A stretch of 64,000 nucleotides of DNA, taken from Euglena gracilis (lineage: Eukaryota). The translations under genes were made by a program, and so were the position numbers. The notes beneath the pieces were generated by a model. That model did not search any database and was not told the DNA's origin. It saw only the letters and a program-made list of their open reading frames with translations. Where the stretch lies: positions 17,638,589 to 17,702,588 of the forward strand of contig CP154954.1 of NCBI GenBank assembly GCA_039621445.1, in the 5' to 3' direction. Shown one piece after another: positions 1,760-31,575 of this stretch. Positions within the stretch are counted from its first letter, which is position 1. Every line of letters starts with the position of its first letter.

Positions 1760-2003
<244 letters not shown>

Positions 2004-6130: not shown

Positions 6131-6805
6131 CATCAGTTGCGTGGCGGCTGCCTCACGTAGTCTGTGTGTCTGTGGTGGCGTTATCTAGTAAGACTCAGTT
6201 CTCACCGGTGGCGGCAGTGTCCAAGCCAGTTCAGCCAGCAGTTGAGCACCGTTTCCAAGTGTCATCACAAGGGGTGTGTGCCTCTCTCCCGTTTGATGTA
6301 CAACAGCACAAGTCTCACCCCCAGCCCTATTAACGTCACCCGGTAAGCAGCATGCACACCAGACCACTGGGAGTTAATCCCCTCCAGTGGAGGGGTGTCA
6401 TAGCTCATAAATCGTGTTCCGGCTGTCAGGGTACAGGGTCCCAGGGGTTACAAAAAAATCGTGGATTTGCGCAATTGCGCAAATCAAAAGGAAAAAAGCT
6501 TAAGTGCGAATTAGGCCGCCTAAGATCCACACCCACAAACACTGTGTGGTTGTGGGTTGGTGTGGGGGGGAGGGGTTGGCAGCCTTAATATCCTCCAGCA
6601 CGCCAATCCGATGGTGCTGCTGACCGGAAAATGGGGCGAGATTGTGACGTGGATGTTTACAGGAATGCAGAACAGCAATGGTGTCAACAAAGGGTGTCTA
6701 CACGGGCCAAACTGGGTTTGGAGGGAGCCCAACCTGGGACGAAGGGTTGGGGGATGGGCAGTTGCTGAATTGGTGTTGGCAGGGGCGGACGGATGGTGTC
6801 CTCCT

Positions 6806-6881
6806 GGCAGCGGTGATGACCCCCAAGTCCCCAGAGTCATCGCATGATGGATGGTCAAACCTCAGAGAAGTCTGAGCTGCC
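6806..6881 (+). ncRNA. box C/D snoRNA-like gene 1 (first of ~23 copies)
   Basis: Terminal stem GGCAGC/GCTGCC. Box C GTGATGA 6813-6819, D' CAGA 6832-6835, C' ATGATGG 6844-6850, box D CTGA 6872-6875 directly followed by the stem. Canonical k-turn geometry, ~76 nt. Confidence 0.82.
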
Positions 6882-6949
6882 CCCTGGAGGATTGTTCCCG
6901 GTTGGGTGGGGTGTGGGCTGGGCCGGGGTCGGCATTGGTTTCGCTTTTA

Positions 6950-7003
6950 GCGCACACGAAATCGCACAGCACAACAGGTGCGCACGCACACGGGCTCAGA
7001 GAC
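6950..7003 (+). ncRNA. single-hairpin AGA-box guide candidate 2 (one per unit)
   Basis: Lower stem GCGCAC/GGGCGC (perfect GTGCGC in several copies, e.g. ~12393), pocket ACGAAAT // CACGCACAC, upper stem CGCAC/GTGCG. AGA lies 15 nt from the pocket top. Target not recognised. Confidence 0.4.
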
Positions 7004-7064
7004 GCAGACCCAGACCCAGGCGGGAAGGGGGGTTGGGGAGGAGGTGTGGTAACCAACCCGCATG

Positions 7065-7141
7065 GGGGCTCGATGATGCCAACCCACAAGTCTTCTGCTC
7101 TGTGATGCACATCTCAACTTGGTCGATGCTACTGAGGCCCC
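7065..7141 (+). ncRNA. box C/D snoRNA-like gene 2 (first of ~22 copies)
   Basis: Terminal stem GGGGCT/GGCCCC. Box C ATGATGC 7073-7079, internal CTGC...GTGATGC as D'/C' (one copy near 18764 has CTGA), box D CTGA 7132-7135. ~77 nt. Confidence 0.75.
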
Positions 7142-7434
7142 TGGAACACCTGTTTGGTCGTGTTCCCGCACGACAGGTGATTTTTTTTTCAAGGCTGATT
7201 GGGGCCCATCCTTTTCTGTTACAGCCTGCGCATTGGACGGGTGACGTTGCTGGCTGGAAAATGGGGGTTGAGAGGGCTGGCCGTGGGGTGTGGCTGCGTG
7301 GAATGGCGGCTGTTTTGGCCGCAGTCACTCCAGCGAGCAGGAGGCAGGGCCATGGGTGGTTGGCTCACCACCAACTGCGTGTTGGTGGTGAGATTTTTTC
7401 ACACAAAAAAAAGCATATTCATCCACACCCACAA

Positions 7435-8351
7435 CAGGGATCCTCATACGTCCTGAAAAGGAAATTCACGGAAATTCACGGAGGATCACGGAAATGGGCA
7501 GAAGACCATTTTCACGGAAATCACGGAAATTCACGGATGAGGCGGAGGGTTCGGAAAATTTTTCGCTCTTTTTGGAATGTGCTTTTTTTGTGCAGATGCA
7601 TTTTTGATGGGATGTTCTGCACATTCTCTGCCTTTCCAAACAGACAATCGCGCAAGCAAAACCTCATTCAGACAATCACAGATGATTTTGTGGCCGCTTT
7701 CCTCCATTCTGGTCTCCCGGTCACAAAACTGGACCACAAAAGCATCAGAGGTGTTCTCCAGAAATACACACAAATTGAGGGTGTGTGGGTTTTTTGCTTA
7801 TTCGGAAAATGACCTCCCACCTTTCCGCCCAGGCTGCATCCAGAAGGGTCAATCGCTACATCGGTCCGCTGACAGGGTTTTGGCAACCCATTTTGGGACA
7901 ATCAAGAAAAAAAATTCAATTTTTCCCAAATTTTTTTCTCAGTTTTTCAAAACAAAAATCAATTTTTCCCCCTCCTGTACGTTTTTTATTTTCATATCCA
8001 GGTGTGGACAGGAACTGATGAATGTATTAAGAGTTCGGGGCATGCGATCATAAACATTTTGTTGGGTATGCGGGAAGGTCTACGTTGTAGCATGCGTTCA
8101 GTTGGGTTGCAAAGGGCCAAACTTGGGTCGGAATTGGCTTCAGCTGTCCTGGAGCCCTGGAGGATCTCCAGGACTATAATTTGGAGAAACAATCTTTGCT
8201 GCCACAACTGCCCAAATATGGCTCCGGTGCAGAATGGAATGTGGCTCTTGACCTTTTCTGGAAACAGGAAATTCACGGAAAATCACGGAAAATCACGGAA
8301 AATCACGGATACATTTTGGCCTCGGCCAGCACGGACATGTGAGGATCCCTG
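7435..8351 (+). mobile_element. non-autonomous hAT element with transposase remnant, inserted in array unit
   Basis: TIR CAGGGATCCTCA...TGAGGATCCCTG. TSD CCCACAA (7 bp as assembled, probably 8). Subterminal CACGGAAA repeats. The peptide ITDDFVAAFLHSGLPVTKLDHKSIRGVLQKY (~7670-7770) resembles hAT/CGGBP1-type transposase segments. Confidence 0.85.
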
Positions 8352-8401
8352 CCCACAAACACTGTGTGGTTGTGGGTTGGTGTGGGGGGGGGGGGGTGGC
8401 A

Positions 8402-8464
8402 GCCTTAATATCCTCCAGCACGCCAATCCGATGGTGCTGCTGGCCGGAAAATGGGGCGAGATTG
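8402..8464 (+). ncRNA. single-hairpin AGA-box (H/ACA-like) pseudouridylation guide candidate 1 (consensus copy; one per unit, first at 6582-6644)
   Basis: Lower stem GCCTTA/TGGGGC, pocket ATATCCT // CCGGAAAA, upper stem CCAGCA/TGCTGG, then G-AGA-NNN. AGA lies 15 nt from the top of the pocket. Confidence 0.68.
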
Positions 8465-11400
8465 TGACGTGGATGTTTACAGGAATGCAGAAGAGCAATG
8501 GTGTCAACAAAGGGTGTCTACACGGGCCAAACTGGGTTTGGAGGGAGCCCAACCTGGGACGAAGGGTTGGGGGATGGGCAGTTGCTGAATTGGTGTTGGC
8601 GGGGGCGGACGGATGGTGTCCTCCTGGCAGCGGTGATGACCCCCAAGTCCCCAGAGTCATCGCATGATGGATGGTCAAACCTCAGAGAAGTCTGAGCTGC
8701 CCCCTGGAGGATTGTTCCCGGTTGGGTGGGGTGTGGGCTGGGCCGGGGTCGGCATTGGTTTCGCTTTTAGCGCACGCAAAATCGCACAGCACAACAGGTG
8801 CGCACGCACACGGGCGCAGAGACACAGACCCAGACCCAGGCGGGAAGGGGGGTTGGGGAGGAGGTGTGGTAACCAACCCGCATGGGGGCTCGATGATGCC
8901 AACCCACAAGTCTTCTGCTCTGTGATGCACATCTCAACTTGGTCGATGCTACTGAGGCCCCTGGAACACCTGTTTGGTCGTGTTCCCGCACGACAGGTGA
9001 TTTTTTTTTTCAAGGCTGATTGGGGCCCATCCTTTTCTGTTACAGCCTGCGCATTGGACGGGTGACGTTGCTGGCTGGAAAATGGGGGTTGAGAGGGCTG
9101 GCCGCGGGGTGTGGCTGCGTGGAATGGCGGCTGTTTTGGCCGCAGTCACTCCAGCGAGCAGGAGGCAGGGCCATGGGTGGTTGGCTCACCACCAACTGCG
9201 TGTTGGTGGTGAGATTTTTTCACGCAAAAAAAGCATATTCATCCACACCCACAAACACTGTGTGGTTGTGGGTTGGTGTGGGGGGGGGGGGGGTGGCAGC
9301 CTTAATATCCTCCAGCACGCCAATCCGATGGTGCTGCTGGCCGGAAAATGGGGCGAGATTGTGACGTGGATGTTTACAGGAATGCAGAACAGCAATGGTG
9401 TCAACAAAGGGTGTCTACACGGGCCAAACTGGGTTTGGAGGGAGCCCAACCTGGGACGAAGAGTTGGGGGACGGGCAGTTGCTGAAGAGGTGTTGGCGGG
9501 GGCGGACGGATGGTGTCCTCCTGGCAGCGGTGATGACCCCCAAGTCCCCAGAGTCATCGCATGATGGATGGTCAAACCTCAGAGAAGTCTGAGCTGCCCC
9601 CTGGAAGATTGTTCCCGGTTGGGCGGGGTGTGGGCTGGGCCGGGGTCGGCATTGGTTTCGCTTTTAGCGCAAACCAAATCGCACAGCACAACAGGTGCGC
9701 ACGCACACGGGCGCAGAGACACAGACCCAGACCCAGGCGGGAAGGGGGGTTGGGGAGGAGGTGTGGTGACCAACCCGCATGGGGGCTCGATGATGCCAAC
9801 CCACAAGTCTTCTGCTCTGTGATGCACATCTCAACTTGGTCGATGCTACTGAGGCCCCTGGAACACCTGTTTGGTCGTGTTCCTGCACGACAGGTGATTT
9901 TTCTTTTCAAGGCTGATTGGGGCCCATCCTTTTCTGTTACAGCCTGCGCATTGGACGGGTGACGTTGCTGGCTGGAAAATGGGGGTTGAGAGGGCTGGCC
10001 GCGGGGTGTGGCTGCGTGGAATGGCGGCTGTTTTGGCCGCAGTCACTCCAGCGAGCAGGAGGCAGGGCCATGGGTGGTTGGCTCACCACCAACTGCGTGT
10101 TGGTGGTGAGATTTTTTCACGCAAAAAAAAGCATATTCATCCACACCCACAAACACTGTGTGGTTGTGGGTTGGTGTGGGGGGGGGTGGCAGCCTTAATA
10201 TCCTCCAGCACGCCAATCCGATGGTGCTGCTGGCCGGAAAATGGGGCGAGATTGTGACGTGGATGTTTACAGGAATGCAGAACAGCAATGGTGTCAACAA
10301 AGGGTGTCTACACGGGCCAAACTGGGTTTGGAGGGAGCCCAACCTGGGACGAAGGGTTGGGGGACGGGCAGTTGCTGAAGAGGTGTTGGCGGGGGCGGAC
10401 GGATGGTGTCCTCCTGGCAGCGGTGATGACCCCCAAGTCCCCAGAGTCATCGCATGATGGATGGTTAAACCTCAGAGAAGTCTGAGCTGCCCCCTGGAGG
10501 ATTGTTCCCGGTTGGGCGGGGTGTGGGCTGGGCCGGGGTCGGCATTGGTTTCGCTTTTAGCGCACACGAAATCGCACAGCACAACAGGTGCGCACGCACA
10601 CGGGCGCAGAGACACAGACCCAGACCCAGGCGGGAAGGGGGGTTGGGGAGGAGGTGTGGTGACCAACCCGCATGGGGGCTCGATGATGCCAACCCACAAG
10701 TCTTCTGCTCTGCGATGCACATCTCAACTTGGTCGATGCTACTGAGGCCCCTGGAACACCTGTTTGGTCGTGTTCCTGCACGACAGGTGATTTTTCTTTT
10801 CAAGGCTGATTGGGGCCCATCCTTTTCTGTTACAGCCTGCGCATTGGACGGGTGACGTTGCTGGCTGGAAAATGGGGGTTGAGAGGGCTGGCCGCGGGGT
10901 GTGGCTGCGTGGAATGGCGGCTGTTTTGGCCGCAGTCACTCCAGCGAGCAGGAGGCAGGGCCATGGGTGGTTGGCTCACCACCAACTGCGTGTTGGTGGT
11001 GAGATTTTTTCACGCAAAAAAAGCATATTCATCCACACCCACAAACACTGTGTGGTTGTGGGTTGGTGTGGGGGGGAGGGGTTGGCAGCCTTAATATCCT
11101 CCAGCACGCCAATCCGATGGTGCTGCTGGCCGGAAAATGGGGCGAGATTGTGACGTGGATGTTTACAGGAATGCAGAACAGCAATGGTGTCAACAAAGGG
11201 TGTCTACACGGGCCAAACTGGGTTTGGAGGGAGCCCAACCTGGGACGAAGGGTTGGGGGACGGGCAGTTGCTGAAGAGGTGTTGGCGGGGGCGGACGGAT
11301 GGTGTCCTCCTGGCAGCGGTGATGACCCCCAAGTCCCCAGAGTCATCGCATGATGGATGGTTAAACCTCAGAGAAGTCTGAGCTGCCCCCTGGAGGATTG

Positions 11401-14400
11401 TTCCCGGTTGGGCGGGGTGTGGGCTGGGCCGGGGTCGGCATTGGTTTCGCTTTTAGCGCACACGAAATCGCACAGCACAACAGGTGCGCACGCACACGGG
11501 CGCAGAGACACAGACCCAGACCCAGGCGGGAAGGGGGGTTGGGGAGGAGGTGTGGTGACCAACCCGCATGGGGGCTCGATGATGCCAACCCACAAGTCTT
11601 CTGCTCTGTGATGCACATCTCAACTTGGTCGATGCTACTGAGGCCCCTGGAACACCTGTTTGGTCGTGTTCCCGCACGACAGGTGATTTTTCTTTTCAAG
11701 GCTGATTGGGGCCCATCCTTTTCTGTTACAGCCTGCGCATTGGACGGGTGACGTTGCTGGCTGGAAAATGGGGGTTGAGAGGGCTGGCCGTGGGGTGTGG
11801 CTGCGTGGAATGGCGGCTGTTTTGGCCGCAGTCACTCCAGCGAGCAGGAGGCAGGGCCATGGGTGGTTGGCTCACCACCAACTGCGTGTTGGTGGTGAGA
11901 TTTTTTCACGCAAAAAAAAGCATATTCATCCACACCCACAAACACTGTGTGGTTGTGGGTTGGTGTGGGGGGGGGGGTGGCAGCCTTAATATCCTCCAGC
12001 ACGCCAATCCGATGGTGCTGCTGGCCGGAAAATGGGGCGAGATTGTGACGTGGATGTTTACAGGAATGCAGAACAGCAATGGTGTCAACAAAGGGTGTCT
12101 ACACGGGTCAAACTGGGTTTGGAGGGAGCCCAACCTGGGACGAAGGGTTGGGGGACGGGCAGTTGCTGAAGTGGTGTTGGCGGGGGCGGACGGATGGTGT
12201 CCTCCTGGCAGCGGTGATGACCCCCAAGTCCCCAGAGTCATCGCATGATGGATGGTCAAACCTCAGAGAAGTCTGAGCTGCCCCCTGGAGGATTGTTCCC
12301 GGTTGGGCGGGGTGTGGGCTGGGCCGGGGTCGGCATTGGTTTCGCTTTTAGCGCACACGAAATCGCACAGCACAACAGGTGCGCACGCACACGTGCGCAG
12401 AGACACAGACCCAGACCCAGGCGGGAAGGGGGGTTGGGGAGGAGGTGTGGTAACCAACCCGCATGGGGGCTCGATGATGCCAACCCACAAGTCTTCTGCT
12501 CTGTGATGCACATCTCAACTTGGTCGATGCTACTGAGGCCCCTGGAACACCTGTTTGGTCGTGTTCCCGCACGACAGGTGATTTTTTTTTCAAGGCTGAT
12601 TGGGGCCCATCCTTTTCTGTTACAGCCTGCGCATTGGACGGGTGACGTTGCTGGCTGGAAAATGGGGGTTGAGAGGGCTGGCCGCGGGGTGTGGCTGCGT
12701 GGAATGGCGGCTGTTTTGGCCGCAGTCACTCCAGCGAGCAGGAGGCAGGGCCATGGGTGGTTGGCTCACCACCAACTGCGTGTTGGTGGTGAGATTTTTT
12801 CACGCAAAAAAAGCATATTCATCCACACCCACAAACACTGTGTGGTTGTGGGTTGGTGTGGGGGGGAGGGGTTGGCAGCCTTAATATCCTCCAGCACGCC
12901 AATCCGATGGTGCTGCTGGCCGGAAAATGGGGCGAGATTGTGACGTGGATGTTTACAGGAATGCAGAACAGCAATGGTGTCAACAAAGGGTGTCTACACG
13001 GGCCAAACTGGGTTTGGAGGGAGCCCAACCTGGGACGAAGGGTTGGGGGATGGGCAGTTGCTGAAGAGGTGTTGGCGGGGGCGGACGGATGGTGTCCTCC
13101 TGGCAGCGGTGATGACCCCCAAGTCCCCAGAGTCATCGCATGATGGATGGTTAAACCTCAGAGAAGTCTGAGCTGCCCCCTGGAGGATTGTTCCCGGTTG
13201 GGCGGGGTGTGGGCTGGGCCGGGGTCGGCATTGGTTTCGCTTTTAGCGCACACGAAATCGCACAGCACAACAGGTGCGCACGCACACGGGCGCAGAGACA
13301 CAGACCCAGACCCAGGCGGGAAGGGGGGTTGGGGAGGAGGTGTGGTGACCAACCCGCATGGGGGCTCGATGATGCCAACCCACAAGTCTTCTGCTCTGTG
13401 ATGCACATCTCAACTTGGTCGATGCTACTGAGGCCCCTGGAACACCTGTTTGGTCGTGTTCCTGCACGACAGGTGATTTTTCTTTTCAAGGCTGATTGGG
13501 GCCCATCCTTTCTGTTACAGCCTGCGCATTGGACGGGTGACGTTGCTGGCTGGAAAATGGGGGTTGAGAGGGCTGGCCGTGGGGTGTGGCTGCGTGGAAT
13601 GGCGGCTGTTTTGGCCGCAGTCACTCCAGCGAGCAGGAGGCAGGGCCATGGGTGGTTGGCTCACCACCAACTGCGTGTTGGTGGTGAGATTTTTTCACGC
13701 AAAAAAAAGCATATTCATCCACACCCACAAACACTGTGTGGTTGTGGGTTGGTGTGGGGGGGGGGGTGGCAGCCTTAATATCCTCCAGCACGCCAATCCG
13801 ATGGTGCTGCTGGCCGGAAAATGGGGCGAGATTGTGACGTGGATGTTTACAGGAATGCAGAACAGCAATGGTGTCAACAAAGGGTGTCTACACGGGTCAA
13901 ACTGGGTTTGGAGGGAGCCCAACCTGGGACGAAGGGTTGGGGGACGGGCAGTTGCTGAAGTGGTGTTGGCGGGGGCGGACGGATGGTGTCCTCCTGGCAG
14001 CGGTGATGACCCCCAAGTCCCCAGAGTCATCGCATGATGGATGGTCAAACCTCAGAGAAGTCTGAGCTGCCCCCTGGAGGATTGTTCCCGGTTGGGCGGG
14101 GTGTGGGCTGGGCCGGGGTCGGCATTGGTTTCGCTTTTAGCGCACACGAAATCGCACAGCACAACAGGTGCGCACGCACACGTGCGCAGAGACACAGACC
14201 CAGACCCAGGCGGGAAGGGGGGTTGGGGAGCAGTTGTGATAACCATCCCAAATGGGGGCTCGATGATGCCAACCCACAAGTCTTCTGCTCTGTGATGCAC
14301 ATCTCAACTTGGTCGATGCTACTGAGGCCCCTGGAACACCTGTTTGGTCGTGTTCCCGCACGACAGGTGATTTTTTTTTCAAGGCTGATTGGGGCCCATC

Positions 14401-17400: not shown

Positions 17401-20400
17401 GAAAATGGGGCGAGATTGTGACGTGGATGTTTACAGGAATGCAGAACAGCAATGGTGTCAACAAAGGGTGTCTACACGGGCCAAACTGGGTTTGGAGGGA
17501 GCCCAACCTGGGACGAAGGGTTGGGGGACGGGCAGTTGCTGAAGAGGTGTTGGCAGGGGCGGACGGATGGTGTCCTCCTGGCAGCGGTGATGACCCCCAA
17601 GTCCCCAGAGTCATCGCATGATGGATGCTGCAACCTCCGAGAACTCCGCGCTGCCCCTTGGCGGCTTGTTCCCGGTTGGGCGGGGTGTGGGCTGGGCCGG
17701 GGTCGGCATTGGTTTCGCTTTTAGCGCACGCGAAATCGCACAGCACAACAGGTGCGCACGCACACGGGCGCAGAGACACAGACCCAGACCCAGGCGGGAA
17801 GGGGGGTTGGGGAGGAGGTGTGGTAACCAACCCGCATGGGGGCTCGATGATGCCAACCCACAAGTCTTCTGCTCTGTGATGCACATCTCAACTTGGTCGA
17901 TGCTACTGAGGCCCCTGGAACACCTGTTTGGTCGTGTTCCCGCACGACAGGTGATTTTTTTTTTCAAGGCTGATTGGGGCCCATCCTTTTCTGTTACAGC
18001 CTGCGCATTGGACGGGTGACGTTGCTGGCTGGAAAATGGGGGTTGAGAGGGCTGGCCGCGGGGTGTGGCTGCGTGGAATGGCGGCTGTTTTGGCCGCAGT
18101 CACTCCAGCGAGCAGGAGGCAGGGCCATGGGTGGTTGGCTCACCACCAACTGCGTGTTGGTGGTGAGATTTTTTCACGCAAAAAAAAGCATATTCATCCA
18201 CCCCACAAACACTGTGTGGTTGTGGGTTGGTGTGGGGGGGAGGGGTTGGCAGCCTTAATATCCTCCAGCACGCCAATCCGATGGTGCTGCTGGCCGGAAA
18301 ATGGGGCGAGATTGTGACGTGGATGTTTACAGGAATGCAGAACAGCAATGGTGTCAACAAAGGGTGTCTACACGGGCCAAACTGGGTTTGGAGGGAGCCC
18401 AACCTGGGACGAAGGGTTGGGGGACGGGCAGTTGCTGAAGAGGTGTTGGCAGGGGCGGACGGATGGTGTCCTCCTGGCAGCGGTGATGACCCCCAAGTCC
18501 CCAGAGTCATCGCATGATGGATGGTCAAACCTCAGAGAAGTCTGAGCTGCCCCCTGGAAGATTGTTCCCGGTTGGGCGGGGTGTGGGCTGGGCCGGGGTC
18601 GGCATTGGTTTCGCTTTTAGCGCACACGAAATCGCACAGCACAACAGGTGCGCACGCACACGGGCGCAGAGACACAGACCCAGACCCAGGCGGGAAGGGG
18701 GGTTGGGGAGGAGGTGTGGTAACCAACCCGCATGGGGGCTCGATGATGCCAACCCACAAGTCTTCTGATCTGTGATGCACATCTCAACTTGGTCGATGCT
18801 ACTGAGGCCCCTGGAACACCTGTTTGGTCGTGTTCCCGCACGACAGGTGCTTTTTTTTTTCAAGGCTGATTGGGGCCCATCCTTTTCTGTTACAGCCTGC
18901 GCATTGGACGGGTGACGTTGCTGGCTGGAAAATGGGGGTTGAGAGGGCTGGCCGCGGGGTGTGGCTGCGTGGAATGGCGGCTGTTTTGGCCGCAGTCACT
19001 CCAGCGAGCAGGAGGCAGGGCCATGGGTGGTTGGCTCACCACCAACTGCGTGTTGGTGGTGAGATTTTTTCACGCAAAAAAAAGCATATTCATCCACCCC
19101 ACAAACACTGTGTGGTTGTGGGTTGGTGTGGGGGGGAGGGGTTGGCAGCCTTAATATCCTCCAGCACGCCAATCCGATGGTGCTGCTGGCCGGAAAATGG
19201 GGCGAGATTGTGACGTGGATGTTTACAGGAATGCAGAACAGCAATGGTGTCAACAAAGGGTGTCTACACGGGCCAAACTGGGTTTGGAGGGAGCCCAACC
19301 TGGGACGAAGGGTTGGGGGACGGGCAGTTGCTGAAGAGGTGTTGGCAGGGGCGGACGGATGGTGTCCTCCTGGCAGCGGTGATGACCCCCAAGTCCCCAG
19401 AGTCATCGCATGATGGATGGTCAAACCTCAGAGAAGTCTGAGCTGCCCCCTGGAAGATTGTTCCCGGTTGGGCGGGGTGTGGGCTGGGCCGGGGTCGGCA
19501 TTGGTTTCGCTTTTAGCGCACACGAAATCGCACAGCACAACAGGTGCGCACGCACACGGGCGCAGAGACACAGACCCAGACCCAGGCGGGAAGGGGGGTT
19601 GGGGAGGAGGTGTGGTAACCAACCCGCATGGGGGCTCGATGATGCCAACCCACAAGTCTTCTGCTCTGTGATGCACATCTCAACTTGGTCGATGCTACTG
19701 AGGCCCCTGGAACACCTGTTTGGTCGTGTTCCCGCACGACAGGTGCTTTTTTTTTCAAGGCTGATTGGGGCCCATCCTTTTCTGTTACAGCCTGCGCATT
19801 GGACGGGTGACGTTGCTGGCTGGAAAATGGGGGTTGAGAGGGCTGGCCGCGGGGTGTGGCTGCGTGGAATGGCGGCTGTTTTGGCCGCAGTCACTCCAGC
19901 GAGCAGGAGGCAGGGCCATGGGTGGTTGGCTCACCACCAACTGCGTGTTGGTGGTGAGATTTTTTCACGCAAAAAAAGCATATTCATCCACCCCACAAAC
20001 ACTGTGTGGTTGTGGGTTGGTGTGGGGGGGAGGGGTTGGCAGCCTTAATATCCTCCAGCACGCCAATCCGATGGTGCTGCTGGCCGGAAAATGGGGCGAG
20101 ATTGTGACGTGGATGTTTACAGGAATGCAGAACAGCAATGGTGTCAACAAAGGGTGTCTACACGGGCCAAACTGGGTTTGGAGGGAGCCCAACCTGGGAC
20201 GAAGGGTTGGGGGACGGGCAGTTGCTGAAGAGGTGTTGGCAGGGGCGGACGGATGGTGTCCTCCTGGCAGCGGTGATGACCCCCAAGTCCCCAGAGTCAT
20301 CGCATGATGGATGGTCAAACCTCAGAGAAGTCTGAGCTGCCCCCTGGAAGATTGTTCCCGGTTGGGCGGGGTGTGGGCTGGGCCGGGGTCGGCATTGGTT

Positions 20401-23400: not shown

Positions 23401-25384
23401 GCTGGAAAATGGGGGTTGAGAGGGCTGGCCGCGGGGTGTGGCTGCGTGGAATGGCGGCTGTTTTGGCCGCAGTCACTCCAGCGAGCAGGAGGCAGGGCCA
23501 TGGGTGGTTGGCTCACCACCAACTGCGTGTTGGTGGTGAGATTTTTTCACGCAAAAAAAAGCATATTCATCCACACCCACAAACACTGTGTGGTTGTGGG
23601 TTGGTGTGGGGGGGAGGGGTTGGCAGCCTTAATATCCTCCAGCACGCCAATCCGATGGTGCTGCTGGCCGGAAAATGGGGCGAGATTGTGACGTGGATGT
23701 TTACAGGAATGCAGAACAGCAATGGTGTCAACAAAGGGTGTCTACACGGGCCAAACTGGGTTTGGAGGGAGCCCAACCTGGGACGAAGGGTTGGGGGACG
23801 GGCAGTTGCTGAAGAGGTGTTGGCGGGGCGGACGGCTGGTGTCCTCCTGGCAGCGGTGATGACCCCCAAGTCCCCAGAGTCATCGCATGATGGATGGTCA
23901 AACCTCAGAGAAGTCTGAGCTGCCCCCTGGAAGATTGTTCCCGGTTGGGCGGGGTGTGGGCTGGGCCGGGGTCGGCATTGGTTTCGCTTTTAGCGCACAC
24001 GAAATCGCACAGCACAACAGGTGCGCACGCACACGGGCGCAGAGACACAGACCCAGACCCAGGCGGGAAGGGGGGTTGGGGAGGAGGTGTGGTAACCAAC
24101 CCGCATGGGGGCTCGATGATGCCAACCCACAAGTCTTCTGCTCTGTGATGCACATCTCAACTTGGTCGATGCTACTGAGGCCCCTGGAACACCTGTTTGG
24201 TCGTGTTCCCGCACGACAGGTGATTTTTTTTTCAAGGCTGATTGGGGCCCATCCTTTTCTGTTACAGCCTGCGCATTGGACGGGTGACGTTGCTGGCTGG
24301 AAAATGGGGGTTGAGAGGGCTGGCCGCGGGGTGTGGCTGCGTGGAATGGCGGCTGTTTTGGCCGCAGTCACTCCAGCGAGCAGGAGGCAGGGCCATGGGT
24401 GGTTGGCTCACCACCAACTGCGTGTTGGTGGTGAGATTTTTTCACGCAAAAAAAGCATATTCACCCACCCCCACAAACCCTGTGTGGTTGTGGGTTGGGG
24501 GGGGGGGGGGGGGTGGCAGCCTTAATATCCTCCAGCACGCCAATCCGATGGTGCTGCTGGCCGGAAAATGGGGCGAGATTGTGACGTGGATGTTTACAGG
24601 AATGCAGAACAGCAATGGTGTCAACAAAGGGTGTCTACACGGGCCAAACTGGGTTTGGAGGGAGCCCAACCTGGGACGAAGGGTTGGGGGACGGGCAGTT
24701 GCTGAGAGGTGTTGGCAGGGGCGGACGGATGGTGTCCTCCTGGCAGCGGTGATGACCCCCAAGTCCCCAGAGTCATCGCATGATGGATGGTCAAACCTCA
24801 GAGAAGTCTGAGCTGCCCCCTGGAAGATTGTTCCCGGTTGGGCGGGGTGTGGGCTGGGCCGGGGTCGGCATTGGTTTCGCTTTTAGCGCACACGAAATCG
24901 CACAGCACAACAGGTGCGCACGCACACGGGCGCAGAGACACAGACCCAGACCCAGGCGGGAAGGGGGGTTGGGGAGGAGGTGTGGTAACCAACCCGCATG
25001 GGGGCTCGATGATGCCAACCCACAAGTCTTCTGCTCTGTGATGCACATCTCAACTTGGTCGATGCTACTGAGGCCCCTGGAACACCTGTTTGGTCGTGTT
25101 CCCGCACGACAGGTTTTTTTTTCAGGCTGGATTGGGGCCCATCCTTGTTCTGATGGGGGGACTGGGGGTTGGTGGTTTGGGGGTGGGTGCTGGCGCTGGT
25201 CCGCCGCATCACGGGTGGGCACGGTGGTTGTGGGTGTTGGGGAGATCAGAGGCCATTACATGGTTGTGGCAGTGGGGGTTGGGGGTGGGGGGGGGGGGGT
25301 GGCGGCTGTTTTGGCCGCAGTCACTCCAGCGAGCAGGAGGCAGGGCCATGGGTGGTTGGTTCACCACCAACTGCGTGTTGGTGG

Positions 25385-25856
25385 CAGGGAATTTCTTAAG
25401 CCGGAGGGTACCCTACCCCCCGGGGGGGGGGGGGTCCAGCCAGCCAGCAGCTCAAATCCAGCCAGCAGCCCAAATTGGGCTGACCCCCCCCCCCCCCCCC
25501 GGAGGAAATAAAGTCGGGCCAGCCCGGCCGGAGGCCGGGGGGAAGGCCGGCCCAGCCGGCCGCAGGCCGGCGCAGGGCTGTCCAGCTCACTTATCCCTGC
25601 ATTTTTCCCCTCACACAGCTCGCATCACAGCCCCCCAGCCTTGATCTAGCTCCACCCATCAAAATGTCGAAAATGGCCAAAATGTGTGAAATTTTGTTTT
25701 CCTCGACCCAGCCCAGCCCAGCGGGGCTCCAGACCCCCCCCATGTTACAGCCTGCGCAGGGGGGGGGGTCCAGCCAGCAGCTCAAATCCAGCCAGCAGCC
25801 TTTTTGCCAGCCGGAGGCTGGACCCCCCCCCCCGGGGGTCCTTAAGAAATTCCCTG
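25385..25856. mobile_element. hAT MITE inserted in array unit
   Basis: TIR CAGGGAATTTCTTAAG...CTTAAGAAATTCCCTG and 8-bp TSD GTTGGTGG. Confidence 0.92.
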
Positions 25857-26215
25857 GTTGGTGGTGAGATTTTTTCACGCAAAAAAAAGCATATTCATCC
25901 ACACCCACAAACACTGTGTGGTTGTGGGTTGGTGTGGGGGGGAGGGGTTGGCAGCCTTAATATCCTCCAGCACGCCAATCCGATGGTGCTGCTGGCCGGA
26001 AAATGGGGCGAGATTGTGACGTGGATGTTTACAGGAATGCAGAACAGCAATGGTGTCAACAAAGGGTGTCTACACGGGCCAAACTGGGTTTGGAGGGAGC
26101 CCAACCTGGGACGAAGGGTTGGGGGACGGGCAGTTGCTGAAGTGGTGTTGGCGGGGGCGGACGGATGGTGTCCTCCTGGCAGCGGTGATGACCCCCAAGT
26201 CCCCAGAGTCATTGC

Positions 26216-27672
26216 CAGACCTCCATTTAGTATGTATGACCAAAAAATTTTTTTACGTATCACATGTATCACAGCCTAAAAATTAATGTATCACATATGT
26301 ATCACCAAAAAATTTTTAATGTATTCCATATGTATCACCAAAAAAATTTTAATGTATCACATATGTATCACCAAATTTTTTGAAAATTTTTTACATTTTT
26401 ACATTTTTACATCGAAATGTTTTTTCAGCTTCCTGTTCCACTTTTTCTTGTTTCTTTGCCTCTCTGCCTCTGCAGACAAATGGAATATGCGCAGGGGGAC
26501 CTCGAATCCTCTGCAGAATCATCTTCTGTGGCATCAGTCGGGGTTGAGGAAGTTCCGAAAGAGATGTTGTCATTGGAGGTCGTTTCAACACAGAAGGAAG
26601 AAAGTGATTACTCTTGTCCATGGTTTGAGGAATTGTTGTCTCGGAATCCTGTATTCCGTCGTTTTGAAGGTTCCCTTCGGAACGAGGGCTTTGACAGCAA
26701 GGAAACTTTTGGATTCATCACAATTGAGGACATGGCACGCATGGCAATTCCTCCGGGGGTGACTTTTGGCCACTTTTGGCCACTTTTGGCCATTTTAGGT
26801 TGCTTTTGTCTCCTTTTGGCCCATTTGTCACCATAATTCATCAATTTTGACCTATGTTGACCATTTTTGGCCACTTTTTGCCCACTTTTTGTAATTTTGG
26901 GCCATTTTGTCCTGCTCTTGGGGCATTTAGGGCCATTTTTGACCATTTAAAGCCATTTTCGACCTTTTTTTTTTGAGATTTTTGCCATTTTTTTGGTCTC
27001 TTTTTTGGTCCAATTTGACCATTTTTGAGCATTTTGTGCCAGTTTGTTGCCAAAAGAACAAAAAAAGCTTCTAAAGTGACCAAAATTGGCCAAAAGCAAG
27101 GCCATTTTGGGCCATTCTTGGCTTTTTTTGGACCATTTTGGGCATTTTTTTTTGTTATTTTTTGCCTGCTTTTGGTAACTTTTTGGTCCATTTTGATCAT
27201 TTTTGACCATTTTGCACCAGGTGCAGCTTCTGGAGTCTCAAAAACAGTGTCCAAAACAGCTTTTCTTTGGCCTCTTTTGCCCACTTTTGGCCATTTTAAC
27301 CATTTTTACCCCCCCACCTACGGCCGACCACTGCCAACCGCAGCCGACCGCGGGCTAAAATTTGGAATCTGTCATAGGTCCTTGGTCAGCACCACGGAAG
27401 TGGGGATGGAGCAGCCATGGGACCTGAGTTCCTGAAGCCCGGGTGAGCGCCATCATACGTGCGTCTGTGAATTTTTCATCTTAAAATTTTGTGTTTCACA
27501 ATTTTATTATATGTTTCACCAAGGAGAATTTGTGTATCACACATGTATCACCAAAATTTTTTTAATGTATCACATATGTATCACCAAAAAAATTTAATGT
27601 ATCATATACGTATCACCAAAAAAAAATTAATGTATCACAGATACGTTGTGATACGCACTAAATGGAGGTCTG
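26216..27672. mobile_element. non-autonomous hAT element inserted inside C/D snoRNA-like gene 1
   Basis: TIR CAGACCTCCATTTAGT...ACTAAATGGAGGTCTG. 8-bp TSD GTCAT(T/C)GC. Subterminal ATGTATCAC repeats at both ends and a low-complexity TTTTGGCCA core. Confidence 0.9.
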
Positions 27673-28797
27673 GTCATCGCATGATGGATGGTCAAACCTC
27701 TGAGAAGTCTGAGCTGCCCCCCGGAGGATTGTTCCCGGTTGGGTGGGGTGTGGGCTGGGCCGGGGTCGGCATTGGTTTCGCTTTTAGCGCACACGAAATC
27801 GCACAGCACAACAGGTGCGCACGCACACGGGCGCAGAGACACAGACCCAGACCCAGGCGGGAAGGGGGGTTGGGGAGGAGGTGTGGTGACTAACCCGCAT
27901 GGGGGCTCGATGATGCCAACCCACAAGTCTTCTGCTCTGTGATGCACATCTCAACTTGGTCGATGCTACTGAGGCCCCTGGAACACCTGTTTGGTCGTGT
28001 TCCTGCACAACAGGTGATTTTTTTTTTCAAGGCTGTTTGGGGCCCATCCATTTCTGTTACAGCCTGCGCATTGGACGGGTGACGTTGCTGGCTGGAAAAT
28101 GGGGGTTGAGAGGGCTGGCCGCGGGGTGTGGCTGCGTGGAATGGCGGCTGTTTTGGCCGCAGTCACTCCAGCGAGCAGGAGGCAGGGCCATGGGTGGTTG
28201 GCTCACCACCAACTGCGTGTTGGTGGTGAGATTTTTTCACGCAAAAAAAAGCATATTCATCCACACCCACAAACACTGTGTGGTTGTGGGTTGGTGTGGG
28301 GGGGGGTGGCAGCCTTAATATCCTCCAGCACGCCAATCCGATGGTGCTGCTGGCCGGAAAATGGGGCGAGATTGTGACGTGGATGTTTACAGGAATGCAG
28401 AACAGCAATGGTGTCAACAAAGGGTGTCTACACGGGCCAAACTGGGTTTGGAGGGAGCCCAACCTGGGACGAAGGGTTGGGGGATGTGCAGTTGCTGAAG
28501 TGGTGTTGGCGGGGGCGGACGGATGGTGTCCTCCTGGCAGCGGTGATGACCCCCAAGTCCCCAGAGTCATCGCATGATGGATGGTTAAACCTCAGAGAAG
28601 TCTGAGCTGCCCCCTGGAAGATTGTTCCCGGTTGGGTGGGGTGTGGGCTGGGCCGGGGTCGGCATTGGTTTCGCTTTTAGCACACGAAATCGCACAGCAC
28701 AACAGGTGCGCACGCACACGTGCGCAGAGACACAGACCCAGACCCAGGCGGGAAGGGGGGTTGGGGAGGAGGTGTGGTAACCAACCCGCATGGGGGC

Positions 28798-29843
28798 CAG
28801 ACATTCATTCAGTGTGGTACACCAAGGTTGTCATTTTGTGGTTCACTGTGGACACCACAAAAATTTTTGTGGTTCACCTGTGGACACCCAAAATTTTTTT
28901 GTGGTTCACTTGTGGACACCAAAAAAATTTTTGTGGTTCACCTGTGGACACCAAAGTAATATTTGTGGTTCACATGTGGACACCAAAAAAAATTTCCCAC
29001 CGCCTGCTGACATTTGCATCATTTTCTTTCTCATCAACAGCAATGAAGCAATCTTCTTTGAACATCATCAACAGCAATGAAGCAATCTTCTTTGAACATG
29101 TTTGACTCAGGCGGCGTAAGTTGGCAAAAATTCTGGTGCTCTAAAAACAGAAGAGGAAGTGGAAAACCACTTCCAAAAAAGGGTCATATTTTTTTTGAAG
29201 AGGTTCTGATTTTGGCCAATTCTGGTGGACGTTTGGCTCGCAGTAAAGAGACCTACACAGTCGAAAAGAGACCGGCTCCTACCTCAAAACAAAGCACATG
29301 GCATTGTCGATTTTTCAGGCACTTTTTCAGGCACTGAGGCACTCAACTGACATCCCACAATGCCCCAGAACGCTCCCAATGTCCGCAGCCATGCCAGAGC
29401 CCCACGATAATGTCGCGTGTTTCTGCTTCCATGAAGCGGAATTCCGCTCTATCGACGCCAGTATTTAACTTTTTGATGGTATCCTTGTTGGGTAAGTTGT
29501 CTATACAGCATGTCTGCTTGAGAACTCTCGATAGCAATCTGTCCAATTTCAACTGCCACGCTTCATGGATTGAGCCGGGGCCAAGGCTCACAATGTGGCT
29601 GAGGTGTCTAAAGATCAATCCGCCTTTAGGTGTAATTGTTTTTTTCGCTCCTCAATCAATTTTTGTGGACCACAAAAATTTTTGTGGACCCCACAAAAAT
29701 TTTTGTGGTTCACCTGTGGACACCAAAATTTTTTTTGTGGTTCACCTGTGGACACCAAAAAATATATTGTGGTTCACCTGTGGACACCAGAAAAAAATTT
29801 GTGGTTCACACGTCTTTTGTGAACCACACTAAATGAATGTCTG
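28798..29843. mobile_element. non-autonomous hAT element inserted at the 5' stem of C/D snoRNA-like gene 2
   Basis: TIR CAGACATTCATT(C/T)AGTGTGG. 8-bp TSD ATGGGGGC. Subterminal TGTGGTTCACCTGTGGACACC repeats. TIR resembles that of 26216-27672. Confidence 0.9.
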
Positions 29844-31022
29844 ATGGGGGCTCGATGATGCCAACCCACAAGTCTTCTGCTCTGTGATGCACATCTCAAC
29901 TTGGTCGATGCTACTGAGGCCCCTGGAACACCTGTTTGGTCGTGTTCCTGCACGACAGGTGATTTTTCTTTTCAAGGCTGATTGGGGCCCATCCTTTTCT
30001 GTTACAGCCTGCGCATTGGACGGGTGACGTTGCTGGCTGGAAAATGGGGGTTGAGAGGGCTGGCCGCGGGGTGTGGCTGCGTGGAATGGCGGCTGTTTTG
30101 GCCGCAGTCACTCCAGCGAGCAGGAGGCAGGGCCATGGGTGGTTGGCTCACCACCAACTGCGTGTTGGTGGTGAGATTTTTTCACGCAAAAAAAAGCATA
30201 TTCATCCACACCCACAAACACTGTGTGGTTGTGGGTTGGTGTGGGGGGGGGTTGGCAGCCTTAATATCCTCCAGCACGCCAATCCGATGGTGCTGCTGGC
30301 CGGAAAATGGGGCGAGATTGTGACGTGGATGGAATGCAGGACAGCAATGGTGTCAACAAAGGGTGTCTACACGGGCCAAACTGGGTTTGGAGGGAGCCCA
30401 ACCTGGGACGAAGGGTTGGGGGACGGGCAGTTGCTGAAGAGGTGTTGGCAGGGGCGGACGGATGGTGTCCTCCTGGCAGCGGTGATGACCCCCAAGTCCC
30501 CAGAGTCATCGCATGATGGATGGTCAAACCTCAGAGAAGTCTGAGCTGCCCCCTGGAGGATTGTTCCCGGTTGGGTGGGGGTGGGCTGGGCCGGGGTCGG
30601 CATTGGCTTCGCTTTTAGCACACGAAATCGCACAGCACAACAGGTGCGCACGCACACGGGCGCAGAGACACAGACCTGGAGGTGTTGGAGGAGGAGATGG
30701 TGACCGTGTTGCCAGCACGCTTGTTCCCTTGGAACACCTGTCCGTTTATGTCCCCAGACATGAAGTTTATTGCCAATTTTTTGTGATCCACCCATTTCTA
30801 TTGAAGCCTGCGCATTGGACGTTATGCTTGATGAACCTTTGTGCTGTCATTATTATTCCTTTTGGGGGTTAGCTTTGGTTGCTTTGGTTGTATTCGGTTG
30901 CTTTTGGTTCATATGGAATTGGGTGGTCCAGTTTTCGACCCCCATTTCAGTCAGCATTAATTATTTTATACTTCGCACCCCGCTTGGTGCGGGTCATGCA
31001 TCTCTGCCATGGGTGGCCGCAG

Positions 31023-31162
31023 GTGGTGGACCGGTGCATCCTGGCCATGGTCAACGAGGCGGCCCGCATCTTGGAGGAGAAGATCGCGGAGTGCCCCGAG
31101 GACGTGGACCTGGGGATGGTGTTTGGCACCGGCTTCGCCCCGTTCCGGGGAGGCCTCCTGAG
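31023..31162 (+). CDS. fatty-acid oxidation multifunctional enzyme (FadJ/HADHA type), 3-hydroxyacyl-CoA dehydrogenase C-terminal domain exon
   Basis: CAG acceptor, GT donor 31163. Encodes VVDRCILAMVNEAARILEEKIAECPEDVDLGMVFGTGFAPFRGGLL, carrying the 3HCDH C-terminal NEA...D.D.G...G.GF..F.GG signature. Confidence 0.9.
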
Positions 31163-31575
31163 GTGGCCCCCATCCATTCTCTGTGACCCCTTACATCGAA
31201 CCCTGCCCACAACTCACGTCATCTTGCAAAAAAAACCTGCCAATTTTTTCCGGGCCGTTTTCAGATTTGGCAATTTTTCGGTTTCCAATTTTGTCGGTTC
31301 TAATTTTATCTATCCGCAATTCCCCCCCCCCCAGTAAAAGGTCAGCAAGCACATTTTTTGAGTTTTGGGAGGATGGGCGATGGTCAGAAATCATTTTCCC
31401 CCATTTTTGCCAAAATATGCCAATTTGCGGCCGTTTTGCTTGTGGATTTTGCATTTATTATGTTGGGACGGAATTTTTTTCCCACTGAGGACCAACCTGG
31501 TGGGGGGGATCCCCACCCTAAAAAAAATCTCTGATGGAGAAGCCTGGGGGTGAGAGCATGCACCGCCCCTCACAG

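What the first reader, a model, noticed from the sequence alone, without database searches (positions are those of the whole stretch)
6523..30820. The ~895-bp 'satellite' is a tandemly amplified polycistronic snoRNA cassette
Seen: each unit has two ~76-nt elements with terminal stems and correctly placed C, D', C' and D boxes, plus one or two single hairpins ending in AGA at the canonical 15-nt spacing. All are on the + strand. Indels in homopolymers destroy every ORF, but the boxes are kept in nearly all ~23 copies. Known: Euglena encodes C/D and single-hairpin AGA-box snoRNAs in tandemly repeated polycistronic clusters. Inference: this is an unannotated cluster of roughly 70-90 guide RNA gene copies.
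Basis: partly seen in the sequence, partly recalled or inferred. Interest (0 to 1): 0.85.

Follow-up and report, generated by a model that had tools for sequence, protein, structure and literature searches.

The report
Tandem array of methylation-guide snoRNA genes
A 24-kb block of about 23 near-identical 895-bp repeats carries two small guide RNAs per repeat that match small-subunit ribosomal RNA of euglenid-type organisms, an ordinary gene layout for Euglena-like protists and not an inert satellite.

Summary
The repeat is real: 23 copies, period 893-899 bp, window 6523-30820, all on the + strand.

Each unit holds two canonical box C/D snoRNA genes, CD1 and CD2. The C-to-D span is 63 nt in both, and the terminal stems are 6 and 8 bp. 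A motif scan finds 43 intact instances in the array, 0 on the minus strand and 0.002 per shuffled unit.

The guide upstream of each D box pairs with the sense strand of SSU rRNA in euglenid-like metagenome rDNA:
- CD1: 13 bp, at the site homologous to the human U61 target.
- CD2: 13-14 bp. This test is independent of how the rDNA was found, and it ranks 1 of 1752 windows of the unit.

Three runs that behave as cDNA hold the whole unit, spacers included, which fits a polycistronic precursor.

Not supported:
- The AGA-box hairpins. Only H1 folds convincingly, and none has an rRNA target.
- The argument from conserved boxes. Spacers are conserved equally well.
- The D' guides, which have no target.

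Four hAT-like transposons interrupt the array. This layout is already described for Euglena, so interest is modest.

The parts
6523..30820 (+). Tandem array of about 23 units of 893-899 bp. Canonical homology ends at 30676. From 30677 to 30820 lies a diverged partial unit.
11040..11934 (+). Reference repeat unit (895 bp). Order of elements: H1, CD1, H3?, CD2, hairpin + T-run, H2?, hairpin + T-run.
11312..11387 (+). CD1, a box C/D snoRNA gene of 76 nt. It has a 6-bp terminal stem, C box GUGAUGA and D box CUGA. The D guide ACCUCAGAGAAGU pairs with euglenid-like SSU GCUUCUCUGAGGU. Two isoforms exist (T or C at position 51). There are 21 intact copies.
11568..11649 (+). CD2, a box C/D snoRNA gene. 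It has an 8-bp terminal stem including G-U pairs, C box AUGAUGC and D box CUGA. The D guide ACUUGGUCGAUGCU pairs with euglenid-like SSU AGCAUCGACC(A/G)AGU. There are 22 copies.
11088..11153 (+). H1, a candidate single-hairpin AGA-box RNA. Stem I is GCCUUA/UGGGGC, there are 15 nt from stem II to AGA, and the fold z-score is -2.74. No rRNA target was found. There are 23 copies.
11715..11786 (+). H2, a weak AGA hairpin whose 3' half resembles that of H1. Its fold is no better than shuffles (z +0.31) and it has no target. Probably not a gene, or a decayed duplicate.
11448..11512 (+). H3, a weak AGA hairpin (GCGCAC/GUGCGC stem, 14 nt to AGA). Fold z-score is -0.76 and it has no target.
11653..11690 (+). 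Hairpin followed by a T-run, directly downstream of CD2 (z -3.55). Role unknown; possibly a processing or termination signal.
11871..11905 (+). Perfect 12-bp hairpin followed by A-T6 (z -7.36, 0 of 200 shuffles fold as well). Role unknown.
7435..8351 (.). Transposon insertion in a spacer. TIR CAGGGATCCTCA..., with a 7-8-bp target duplication (CCCACAA).
   Evidence: read
25385..25856 (.). Transposon insertion. TIR CAGGGAATTTCTTAAG, with an 8-bp duplication GTTGGTGG.
   Evidence: read
26216..27672 (.). Transposon inserted inside a CD1 copy. TIR CAGACCTCCATTTAGT, with an 8-bp duplication GTCATYGC. It splits the snoRNA between D' and C'.
   Evidence: read
28798..29843 (.). Transposon inserted in the 5' terminal stem of a CD2 copy. 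TIR CAGACATTCATT, with an 8-bp duplication ATGGGGGC.
   Evidence: read
17580..17655 (+). CD1 copy with 7 substitutions in its 3' half. The D guide and the D box are lost.

Best explanation
The block is a nuclear gene array of a euglenid-type protist. An 895-bp cassette is repeated head to tail about 23 times. [quoted passage not shown]

Inferred mechanism. The array is transcribed through genes and spacers as a long precursor. The ~76-82-nt RNAs are then cut out, protected by the C/D-box proteins bound at the kink-turn formed by the C and D boxes and the terminal stem. Each RNA uses the 13-14 nt upstream of its D box to pair with SSU rRNA. That pairing places fibrillarin on the nucleotide opposite the fifth guide position.
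- CD1 would methylate a C in ...GCUU[C]UCUGAGG..., the helix that human U61 targets.
- CD2 would methylate an A in ...AAAGC[A]UCGACC..., in the central domain.

The many copies give dosage and isoforms.

Shown: the repeat, the box architecture, the guide-target complementarity with a relative's rRNA, and the presence of whole-unit RNA.

Inferred: processing to discrete small RNAs, protein binding, the methylated positions, and the transcribed strand.
For: 1. Repeat. 23 copies with period 893-899 bp, all elements on +.

2. C/D architecture. 43 hits in the array, against 0 on the other strand, 1 elsewhere in the remaining ~40 kb of the window, and 0.002 per shuffled unit. The C-to-D span is the same 63 nt in both genes.

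3. Similarity to a known family. CD1 resembles Rfam snoU61 over its full length, below threshold (22.8 bits, E = 0.028). The guide segment is what aligns.

4. Source of the rRNA. A metagenome scan for SSU genes carrying 8 nt of the CD1 target plus an 18S primer motif returned 76 loci. 17 of them form a euglenid-like SSU group with GCTTCTCTGAGGT. L057 carries 5.8S, LSU and a 2304-nt SSU on one strand.

5. CD1 D guide. 12 Watson-Crick pairs plus 1 G-U at L057 8326. Rfam aligns this site with the SSU consensus aagCuUCuuagaggGAc.

6. CD2 D guide. It was not used to find the loci. It gives 13 WC + 1 GU at L057 7522 and 14 WC in L024. Pairing starts at guide position 2, on the sense strand. It is the best of all 1752 20-nt windows of the unit (both strands) against L057 rRNA; the CD1 window is tied for second. 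The site is conserved in the 4 euglenid-like sequences aligned and differs in the kinetoplastid-like and other SSUs.

7. RNA. Runs X2, X7 and X16 behave as cDNA.
- Exon 31021-31162 has depth 97-991, with loose ends at both borders. One loose end matches the next exon at 31576.
- The unique flank 30678-30989 has depth 0, although DNA run X4 covers it at 58-132.
- The same three runs cover the whole unit at 18.6, up to 6.7 (one bin has none) and 28-41. One is a 905-nt contig that wraps round the unit.
- Relative to X4, the unit is 9-40 times more represented than the high-copy repeat at 31198-31353. DNA carry-over therefore does not explain it.

8. Literature. Passages in PMC7671301, PMC2784804 and PMC2613932 state two things. 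Euglena snoRNA genes lie in polycistronic, multi-copy clusters with isoforms. Euglenozoan clusters mix C/D and single-hairpin AGA RNAs.
Against: - The rRNA used belongs to unnamed metagenome relatives, not to the organism of the window. No genome is held for the window.
- The CD1 match is partly circular, because 8 of its 13 nt were in the search pattern.
- A 14-bp duplex with 2 G-U pairs also arose by chance in non-rRNA loci among 0.42 Mb scanned on both strands.
- Neither D' guide has a target above background.
- No Rfam family reaches its gathering score.
- The RNA evidence comes from assembled contigs of runs whose RNA label is a guess. It shows no strand, no ends and no discrete small RNAs.
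- The genes are no better conserved among copies than the spacers.
- CD2 alone does not fold better than shuffles (z 0.02). That is usual for C/D RNAs but gives no support.
Confidence: 0.85

Rival explanations
1. The fuller cassette the first reader proposed. Besides the two C/D RNAs, each unit would also encode one to three single-hairpin AGA-box pseudouridylation guides (H1, perhaps H2 and H3). The spacers would then be short, as in dense snoRNA clusters.
For: - H1 meets the structural rules quoted for trypanosomatid H/ACA-like RNAs in PMC2613932: stem I of 5-8 bp, 1-3 nt before AGA, 13-16 nt from pocket top to AGA, a perfect stem above the pocket, and a loop of at least 5 nt.
- H1 has a 6-bp stem I, 1 nt before AGA, 15 nt to AGA and a 6-nt loop. 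It folds better than 197 of 200 shuffles.
- All 23 H1 copies are intact.
- With H1, H3 and H2 counted as genes, the gaps between genes would be roughly 55-160 nt.
- In DNA run X4 the summed contig depth peaks over H1 and CD1 (about 11,000 and 10,000, against about 1,900 for spacers). This could mean extra copies of just these segments elsewhere. It is only a weak hint, because contig depth cannot rank parts.
Against: - No bipartite target flanking a U exists in L057 5.8S, LSU or SSU for H1, H2 or H3. For H1 the best hit is matched or beaten by 32% of shuffled pockets. H2 and H3 have no hit at all.
- H2 and H3 fold no better than shuffles.
- The loose structural rule fires at 7 or more places in one unit.
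- Stem I of H1 needs two G-U pairs.
Confidence: 0.35
2. The array is essentially a satellite. A snoRNA-bearing segment was amplified by unequal crossing-over, and most copies are silent or decaying passengers. The functional genes would lie elsewhere.
For: - Copies are 98-100% identical, genes and spacers alike, as expected from recent amplification or homogenisation rather than selection on the RNAs.
- Four transposons have landed in the array, two of them inside snoRNA copies.
- One CD1 copy has lost its D box.
Against: - 43 of 45 C/D copies are intact.
- The whole unit is present in three cDNA-like runs, well above the level expected from DNA carry-over.
- Both D guides keep full complementarity to rRNA.
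- Tandem multi-copy arrays are the normal form of these genes in Euglena (passages).
Confidence: 0.08
3. The array lies inside a very long intron of the neighbouring 3-hydroxyacyl-CoA dehydrogenase gene. It would be expressed from that host transcript and not from its own promoter.
For: - An expressed, spliced exon of a 3HCDH-domain protein starts 345 bp after the array, on the same strand.
- Its upstream partner exon is not within the 31 kb to the left. The preceding intron, if it lies in this window, would therefore span the array.
Against: - No contig joins the array to the exon.
- The cDNA contigs covering the unit continue into further canonical units, not into the flank (loose ends at 30676).
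- The upstream exon may simply belong to a paralogue or lie elsewhere.
Confidence: 0.12

Closest known systems
Euglena gracilis tandemly repeated, polycistronically transcribed modification-guide snoRNA gene clusters (Moore & Russell 2012; Russell, Schnare & Gray 2004 and 2006). I saw these only as citations and citing passages in PMC7671301, PMC2784804 and PMC6366073. Their details are recalled.
   Same: - Several guide RNA genes lie on one strand in a short cassette.
- The cassette is repeated head to tail.
- Isoforms differ by single bases.
- RNA covers the spacers.
- The C/D RNAs are compact, with uniform box spacing.
- The guides fit euglenid-type rRNA.
   Different: - I could not compare sequences with the published Eg-m/Eg-p RNAs, so I cannot say whether CD1 and CD2 are catalogued species.
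- The spacers here are long unless the AGA hairpins are genes.
- The array carries four transposon insertions.
Human/vertebrate SNORD61 (U61; Rfam RF01170)
   Same: - Full-length box C/D alignment.
- The D guide addresses the homologous SSU helix. The consensus there is CUUCUUAGAGGGAC; the euglenid form is CUUCUCUGAGGUGC.
   Different: - Score is 22.8 bits against a gathering score of 55, so CD1 is not a member by Rfam's rule.
- The guide is one nucleotide shorter before the D box, so the predicted methylated residue is the neighbouring nucleotide.
- The genomic context also differs. By recall, U61 is intronic and single-copy.
Trypanosomatid snoRNA clusters with single-hairpin AGA-box H/ACA-like RNAs (PMC2613932, passages read)
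   Same: - The clusters are reiterated and mix C/D genes with AGA-box hairpins.
- H1 fits the published structural rules.
   Different: - No pseudouridylation target was found for any hairpin here.
- That paper itself reports that such structural rules give very many false candidates.

Membership tests
Box C/D snoRNA (2'-O-methylation guide) | C box RUGAUGA near the 5' end and D box CUGA near the 3' end | tested here: met
   CD1 has GUGAUGA and CUGA. CD2 has AUGAUGC (1 deviation) and CUGA. The motif scan finds 43 instances in the array and 0.002 per shuffled unit.
Box C/D snoRNA (2'-O-methylation guide) | Terminal stem that brings the C and D boxes together | tested here: met
   6 bp in CD1 (all Watson-Crick) and 8 bp in CD2 (with G-U pairs), within 0-2 nt of the boxes.
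Box C/D snoRNA (2'-O-methylation guide) | Internal D' and C' boxes | tested here: inconclusive
   They are present at the expected places, but each is one base off consensus. CD1 has CAGA and UGAUGG. CD2 has CUGC and GUGAUGC. Read; no statistical test was made.
Box C/D snoRNA (2'-O-methylation guide) | At least 10 nt directly upstream of D or D' complementary to rRNA or snRNA, on the sense strand | tested here: met
   D guides: CD1 pairs over 13 bp and CD2 over 13-14 bp with the SSU of euglenid-like metagenome rDNA. CD2 ranks 1 of 1752 windows. D' guides: nothing above background. The rRNA is a relative's, not the organism's own.
Box C/D snoRNA (2'-O-methylation guide) | Discrete 60-100-nt RNA bound by fibrillarin/Nop56/Nop58, with the target nucleotide methylated | not testable with these tools
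   Only assembled contigs of cDNA-like runs were available. No small-RNA run was listed. The modification maps are in papers or supplements that are not held.
Rfam snoU61 (RF01170) | Score at or above the family's gathering threshold (55 bits) | tested here: not met
   22.8 bits, E = 0.028. No family reaches its gathering score anywhere in the window.
Single-hairpin AGA-box (H/ACA-like) pseudouridylation guide | Stem I, pocket, stem II and loop; AGA 1-3 nt after stem I; 13-16 nt below the pocket top | tested here: inconclusive
   H1 meets every rule and folds with z -2.74. H2 and H3 meet them only loosely (z +0.31 and -0.76). The rule fires at 7 or more sites per unit.
Single-hairpin AGA-box (H/ACA-like) pseudouridylation guide | Bipartite pocket complementarity flanking a target U in rRNA or snRNA | tested here: not met
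   No target in L057 5.8S, LSU or SSU beats shuffled pockets. This was tested on a relative's rRNA only. snRNAs were not available.
Euglena-type tandem polycistronic snoRNA gene cluster | Several snoRNA genes on one strand within a cassette that is tandemly repeated | tested here: met
Euglena-type tandem polycistronic snoRNA gene cluster | Transcription across genes and spacers as one precursor | tested here: inconclusive
   Whole-unit contigs, one of which wraps round the unit, occur in 3 cDNA-like runs. A silent-flank control and a high-copy-repeat control are built in. The strand and the continuity of single molecules are not shown.
Euglena-type tandem polycistronic snoRNA gene cluster | The host is a euglenid | tested here: inconclusive
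   The guides fit the SSU variant found only in the euglenid-like group of loci, not the kinetoplastid-like or other SSUs. Naming that group 'euglenid' rests on my recall of euglenozoan rRNA, on the 2304-nt SSU length and on the one-strand 5.8S-LSU-SSU contig. No tool named the organism.

The most novel reading that the evidence does not exclude
The cassette holds more than two methylation guides. H1 would be a real AGA-box RNA whose target is not ordinary rRNA, for example an snRNA, the spliced-leader RNA or a lineage-specific LSU piece. The two strong hairpin + U-run elements (11653-11690 and 11871-11905) would be the signals that punctuate or terminate the polycistronic snoRNA precursor. 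No such signal has been defined for euglenids, to my knowledge (recalled; my searches were not aimed at this).
Probability: 0.15. Interest if true: 0.5.

Novelty: new member of a known kind. Interest (0 to 1): 0.3.

Why it matters
The finding shows that a block which looks like a 24-kb satellite is a working gene array. It assigns two guide RNAs to two SSU rRNA sites, and this can be checked at once against the published Euglena modification map.

For genome annotation, it shows that such arrays can be recognised from sequence alone by box architecture plus guide-rRNA pairing.

The four hAT-like insertions, two of them inside snoRNA copies, give a dated record of array turnover.

It does not change what is known about snoRNA biology. 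Tandem polycistronic snoRNA clusters in Euglena are already described.

Tried and rejected
- Protein-coding reading. ORFs differ from copy to copy. 4 of 4 long array ORFs tested have no Pfam family. Rejected.
- Rfam at gathering thresholds. 0 matches in the window.
- Whole genome. None is held, so I could not search the organism's own rRNA, paralogous arrays or snRNAs.
- Sequencing runs. No RNA holder is listed among the 24 runs. Three runs guessed as RNA were laid and behave as cDNA.
- RNA cover of the flank. There is none over 30678-30989 in those runs. I used this only as the silent-stretch control, not as evidence of termination.
- First metagenome scan, with the 12-nt CD1 target including the position next to box D. 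It gave 0 hits. The relatives have G, not A, opposite that U, which makes a G-U pair. The relaxed second scan worked.
- Rfam on 17 loci at once failed internally. I repeated it with 5 loci.
- Rfam on L057 7440-7640. No match, so the CD2 target site was placed by a MAFFT alignment of 8 SSU segments instead.
- D' guides. Best matches are 9-10 bp plus G-U pairs or mismatches, no better than in bacterial contigs.
- AGA-hairpin targets. None.
- Selection on the genes among copies. Not detectable.
- Upstream exon of the neighbouring gene. Not in the window.
- Earlier findings of this scan. Nothing by place, by sequence or by words.
- Primary Euglena snoRNA papers (PMC1370595, PMC6284569 and its DOI). 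Not held. A search for 'Eg-m' names found 0 papers. Supplements, for example the modification table of PMC7672448, are closed. They may list the two predicted sites.
- The C/D-like hit at 55442-55509. Weak 5-bp stem and no other support. Treated as chance.


Full report
**Observation.** The window holds a head-to-tail repeat with a period of 893-899 bp between about 6523 and 30820.
- The repeat finder lists 23 copies. Four longer intervals (1820, 1435, 2358 and 1939 bp) are discussed below.
- TRF did not report the repeat, because its longest period is 500.
- The 18 regular units align into 907 columns, of which 82 vary.
- G+C is about 0.58-0.59 with a strong G-over-C skew on the + strand.

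**Anatomy of the unit (reference copy 11040-11934).** Two elements have the full box C/D layout.
- CD1 (11312-11387, 76 nt): GGCAGC, G, GUGAUGA, a 12-nt spacer, CAGA, 9 nt, UGAUGG, a 20-nt region, CUGA, GCUGCC.
- CD2 (about 11568-11649): an 8-bp terminal stem with G-U pairs, AUGAUGC, 15 nt, CUGC, GUGAUGC, 23 nt, CUGA.
- I scanned for R-TGATG-A/C, then CTGA 45-95 nt later, with a terminal stem of at least 5 bp within 2 nt of the boxes.
  - The scan finds 43 instances on the + strand of the array and none on the - strand.
  - It finds one weak instance in the rest of the window.
  - Across 2000 shuffles of the unit it finds 0.002 per unit.
- The C-to-D span is 63 nt in both genes.
- By Hamming distance, 21 CD1 copies are intact. 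One carries 7 substitutions that remove the D guide and D box, and one is split by a transposon. There are 22 CD2 copies.
- CD1 has two isoforms, T or C at position 51.

**Are they guides?** No genome is held for the window, so I had to find rRNA elsewhere.
- Rfam in E-value mode aligned CD1 end to end with snoU61 (22.8 bits, E = 0.028; below the gathering score of 55). The D-guide segments aligned with each other.
- I therefore scanned metagenome contigs for an 18S primer motif followed, 25-55 nt on, by the CD1 guide.
  - The 12-nt version found nothing.
  - An 8-nt version found 76 loci.
- In sense orientation these loci fall into three groups:
  - a kinetoplastid-like SSU group (CTTCTCTGCAGG);
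  - 17 loci of a second SSU group (GCTTCTCTGAGGTGCTG);
  - chance hits in other contigs.
- Five loci of the second group were passed through Rfam. All are eukaryotic SSU rRNA. L057 (9220 nt) carries 5.8S, LSU and a 2304-nt SSU on one strand.
- I call this group euglenid-like. That name rests on my recall of euglenozoan rRNA and on the long SSU, not on a tool.

**Guide-target results.**
- CD1's D guide pairs with L057 8326-8338 over 13 bp (12 Watson-Crick and one G-U next to box D). Rfam aligns that stretch with the SSU consensus aagCuUCuuagaggGAc, the helix addressed by U61. This test is partly circular, because 8 of the 13 nt were in the search pattern.
- CD2's D guide was not used in the search.
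  - It pairs with L057 7522-7535 over 14 bp (13 WC + 1 G-U), starting at guide position 2, on the sense strand of SSU.
  - In L024 the same site gives 14 Watson-Crick pairs.
  - I paired all 1752 20-nt windows of the unit (both strands) with L057 rRNA. The CD2 guide window ranks first, and the CD1 guide window is tied for second.
  - Over all 76 loci (0.42 Mb, both strands), the three best CD2 matches are in the euglenid-like SSUs. The best non-rRNA match has 12 WC + 2 G-U, so chance is not negligible.
  - In an alignment of 8 SSU segments, the CD2 site is conserved in the four euglenid-like sequences and differs in the others.
- By the fifth-nucleotide rule, the predicted methylated residues are C in GCUU[C]UCUGAGG and A in AAAGC[A]UCGACC.
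- Neither D' guide has a match above background.

**RNA.** No run is on record as RNA. I laid three small runs guessed as RNA, plus one DNA run, on 29846-31400. That stretch holds the last unit, the unique flank and a neighbouring exon.
- The three runs behave as cDNA.
  - Exon 31021-31162 (a 3HCDH domain) has depth 97-991, with loose ends at both borders. The downstream loose end matches the next exon at 31576.
  - The flank 30678-30989 has depth 0, while DNA run X4 covers it at 58-132.
- The same three runs cover the unit at 18.6, up to 6.7 (one bin has none) and 28-41. One run has a 905-nt contig that goes back 831 nt, which means it wraps round the repeat.
- In X4 the unit lies at about 1,880, some 30 times the flank. 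That agrees with about 23 copies. The repeat at 31198-31353 lies at 128,000-537,000.
- Relative to X4, the unit is 9-40 times more represented in the cDNA-like runs than that repeat, so DNA carry-over is an unlikely source.
- Contigs show neither the strand nor the ends, and they do not show mature small RNAs.

**The AGA hairpins.**
- H1 (11088-11153) satisfies the rules given for trypanosomatid H/ACA-like RNAs (passages of PMC2613932). It has stem I GCCUUA/UGGGGC, 1 nt, then AGA, with 15 nt from stem II to AGA and a 6-nt loop. It folds with z -2.74.
- H2 (11715-11786) shares its 3' half with H1, but it has lost the upper stem (z +0.31). H3 (11448-11512) is also weak (z -0.76).
- The same loose rule fires at seven or more places per unit.
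- No pocket has a bipartite target in L057 rRNA that beats shuffled pockets.
- I therefore treat H1 as a candidate, with about a one-in-three chance of being real, and H2 and H3 as unsupported.

**Conservation argument.** Among the 18 regular units, 5.9% of columns in CD1 and CD2 vary, against 9.7% elsewhere (Fisher p = 0.16). The uniformity belongs to the whole repeat, from homogenisation or recent amplification. It says nothing about the genes.

**Interruptions.** The four long intervals are transposon insertions with terminal inverted repeats starting CAG and 7-8-bp target duplications. By recall, these are features of hAT-type elements.
- 7435-8351.
- 25385-25856.
- 26216-27672, inside a CD1 copy.
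- 28798-29843, in the 5' stem of a CD2 copy (for the last three).

At its right end the array fades into a diverged piece of a unit. In a two-sequence alignment this piece lacks a 63-nt block that corresponds to the C-to-D body of CD2. Identity there is low, and I draw no conclusion from it.

**Comparison with what is known.**
- PMC7671301 and PMC2784804 (passages read) state that Euglena snoRNA genes are mainly in polycistronic clusters, multi-copy and with isoforms. They cite Moore & Russell 2012 and Russell et al. 2004.
- PMC6366073 and PMC7200641 cite Moore et al. 2018 for more than 200 Euglena snoRNAs.
- PMC7672448 reports 349 rRNA modifications in Euglena.
- The primary snoRNA papers are not held and supplements are closed. 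I could therefore not check whether CD1 and CD2 are catalogued species or whether the two predicted sites are mapped Nm residues.
- The layout found here is the known one.

**Verdict.** This is a real and well-supported tandem array of two SSU-targeting box C/D snoRNA genes, with 43 intact copies. It is probably transcribed as a long precursor, in a euglenid-type genome. The pseudouridine-guide part of the claim and the figure of 70-90 genes are not supported. The finding adds an annotation, not a new kind of system.

Noticed in passing
window 7435-8351, 25385-25856, 26216-27672, 28798-29843: Four non-autonomous DNA transposons with TIRs beginning CAG(G/A) and 7-8-bp target-site duplications. 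They carry subterminal 10-bp or 32-33-bp tandem repeats (GGAAATTCAC; ATGTATCACC...; TGTGGTTCACCTGTGGACACC...). Two pairs look related by their TIRs. Probably hAT-like MITEs.
   Followed up: partly
window 11871-11905 and 11653-11690 (every unit): Two very stable hairpins, each followed by a T-run on the + strand (z -7.36 and -3.55). One lies directly after CD2 and one lies near the unit junction. They look like terminator or processing signals, but no role is known.
   Followed up: partly
window 30677-30820: The array ends in a diverged partial unit. In the alignment it lacks a 63-nt block matching the C-to-D body of CD2. It could be a relic from before the gene was there, or a deletion. The alignment is weak.
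   Followed up: partly
window 31021-31162 and 31576 onward, + strand: Expressed, GT-AG-spliced exons of a 3-hydroxyacyl-CoA dehydrogenase C-terminal domain protein, starting 345 bp after the array. The upstream exon seen in cDNA contigs is not in the window.
   Followed up: partly
window 31198-31353: A short T-rich repeat (CAATTTTGTCGGTTC-like) with enormous depth in the DNA run, about 2,000-9,000 times single copy. It is a very abundant dispersed or satellite element of this genome.
   Followed up: no
window 48940-54000 versus 56900-63850: A segmental duplication of at least 5 kb at 96-98% identity, offset by about 9.9 kb (7.96 kb at its left edge). It is G+C-rich (0.64).
   Followed up: no
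window 25125-25300: In the unit 24470-25905, the stretch that normally holds H2 is replaced by unrelated G-rich sequence.
   Followed up: no
window 1760-2003 and 2912-2947: A 244-bp (CA)n microsatellite and a run of 36 G.
   Followed up: no
L057 (metagenome contig, 9220 nt): 5.8S, LSU and a 2304-nt SSU lie on one strand in the order 5.8S-LSU-spacer-SSU. This is what a permuted circular or tandem rDNA unit would give. It is reminiscent of the 11.3-kb extrachromosomal rDNA circle described for Euglena in PMC7672448.
   Followed up: no
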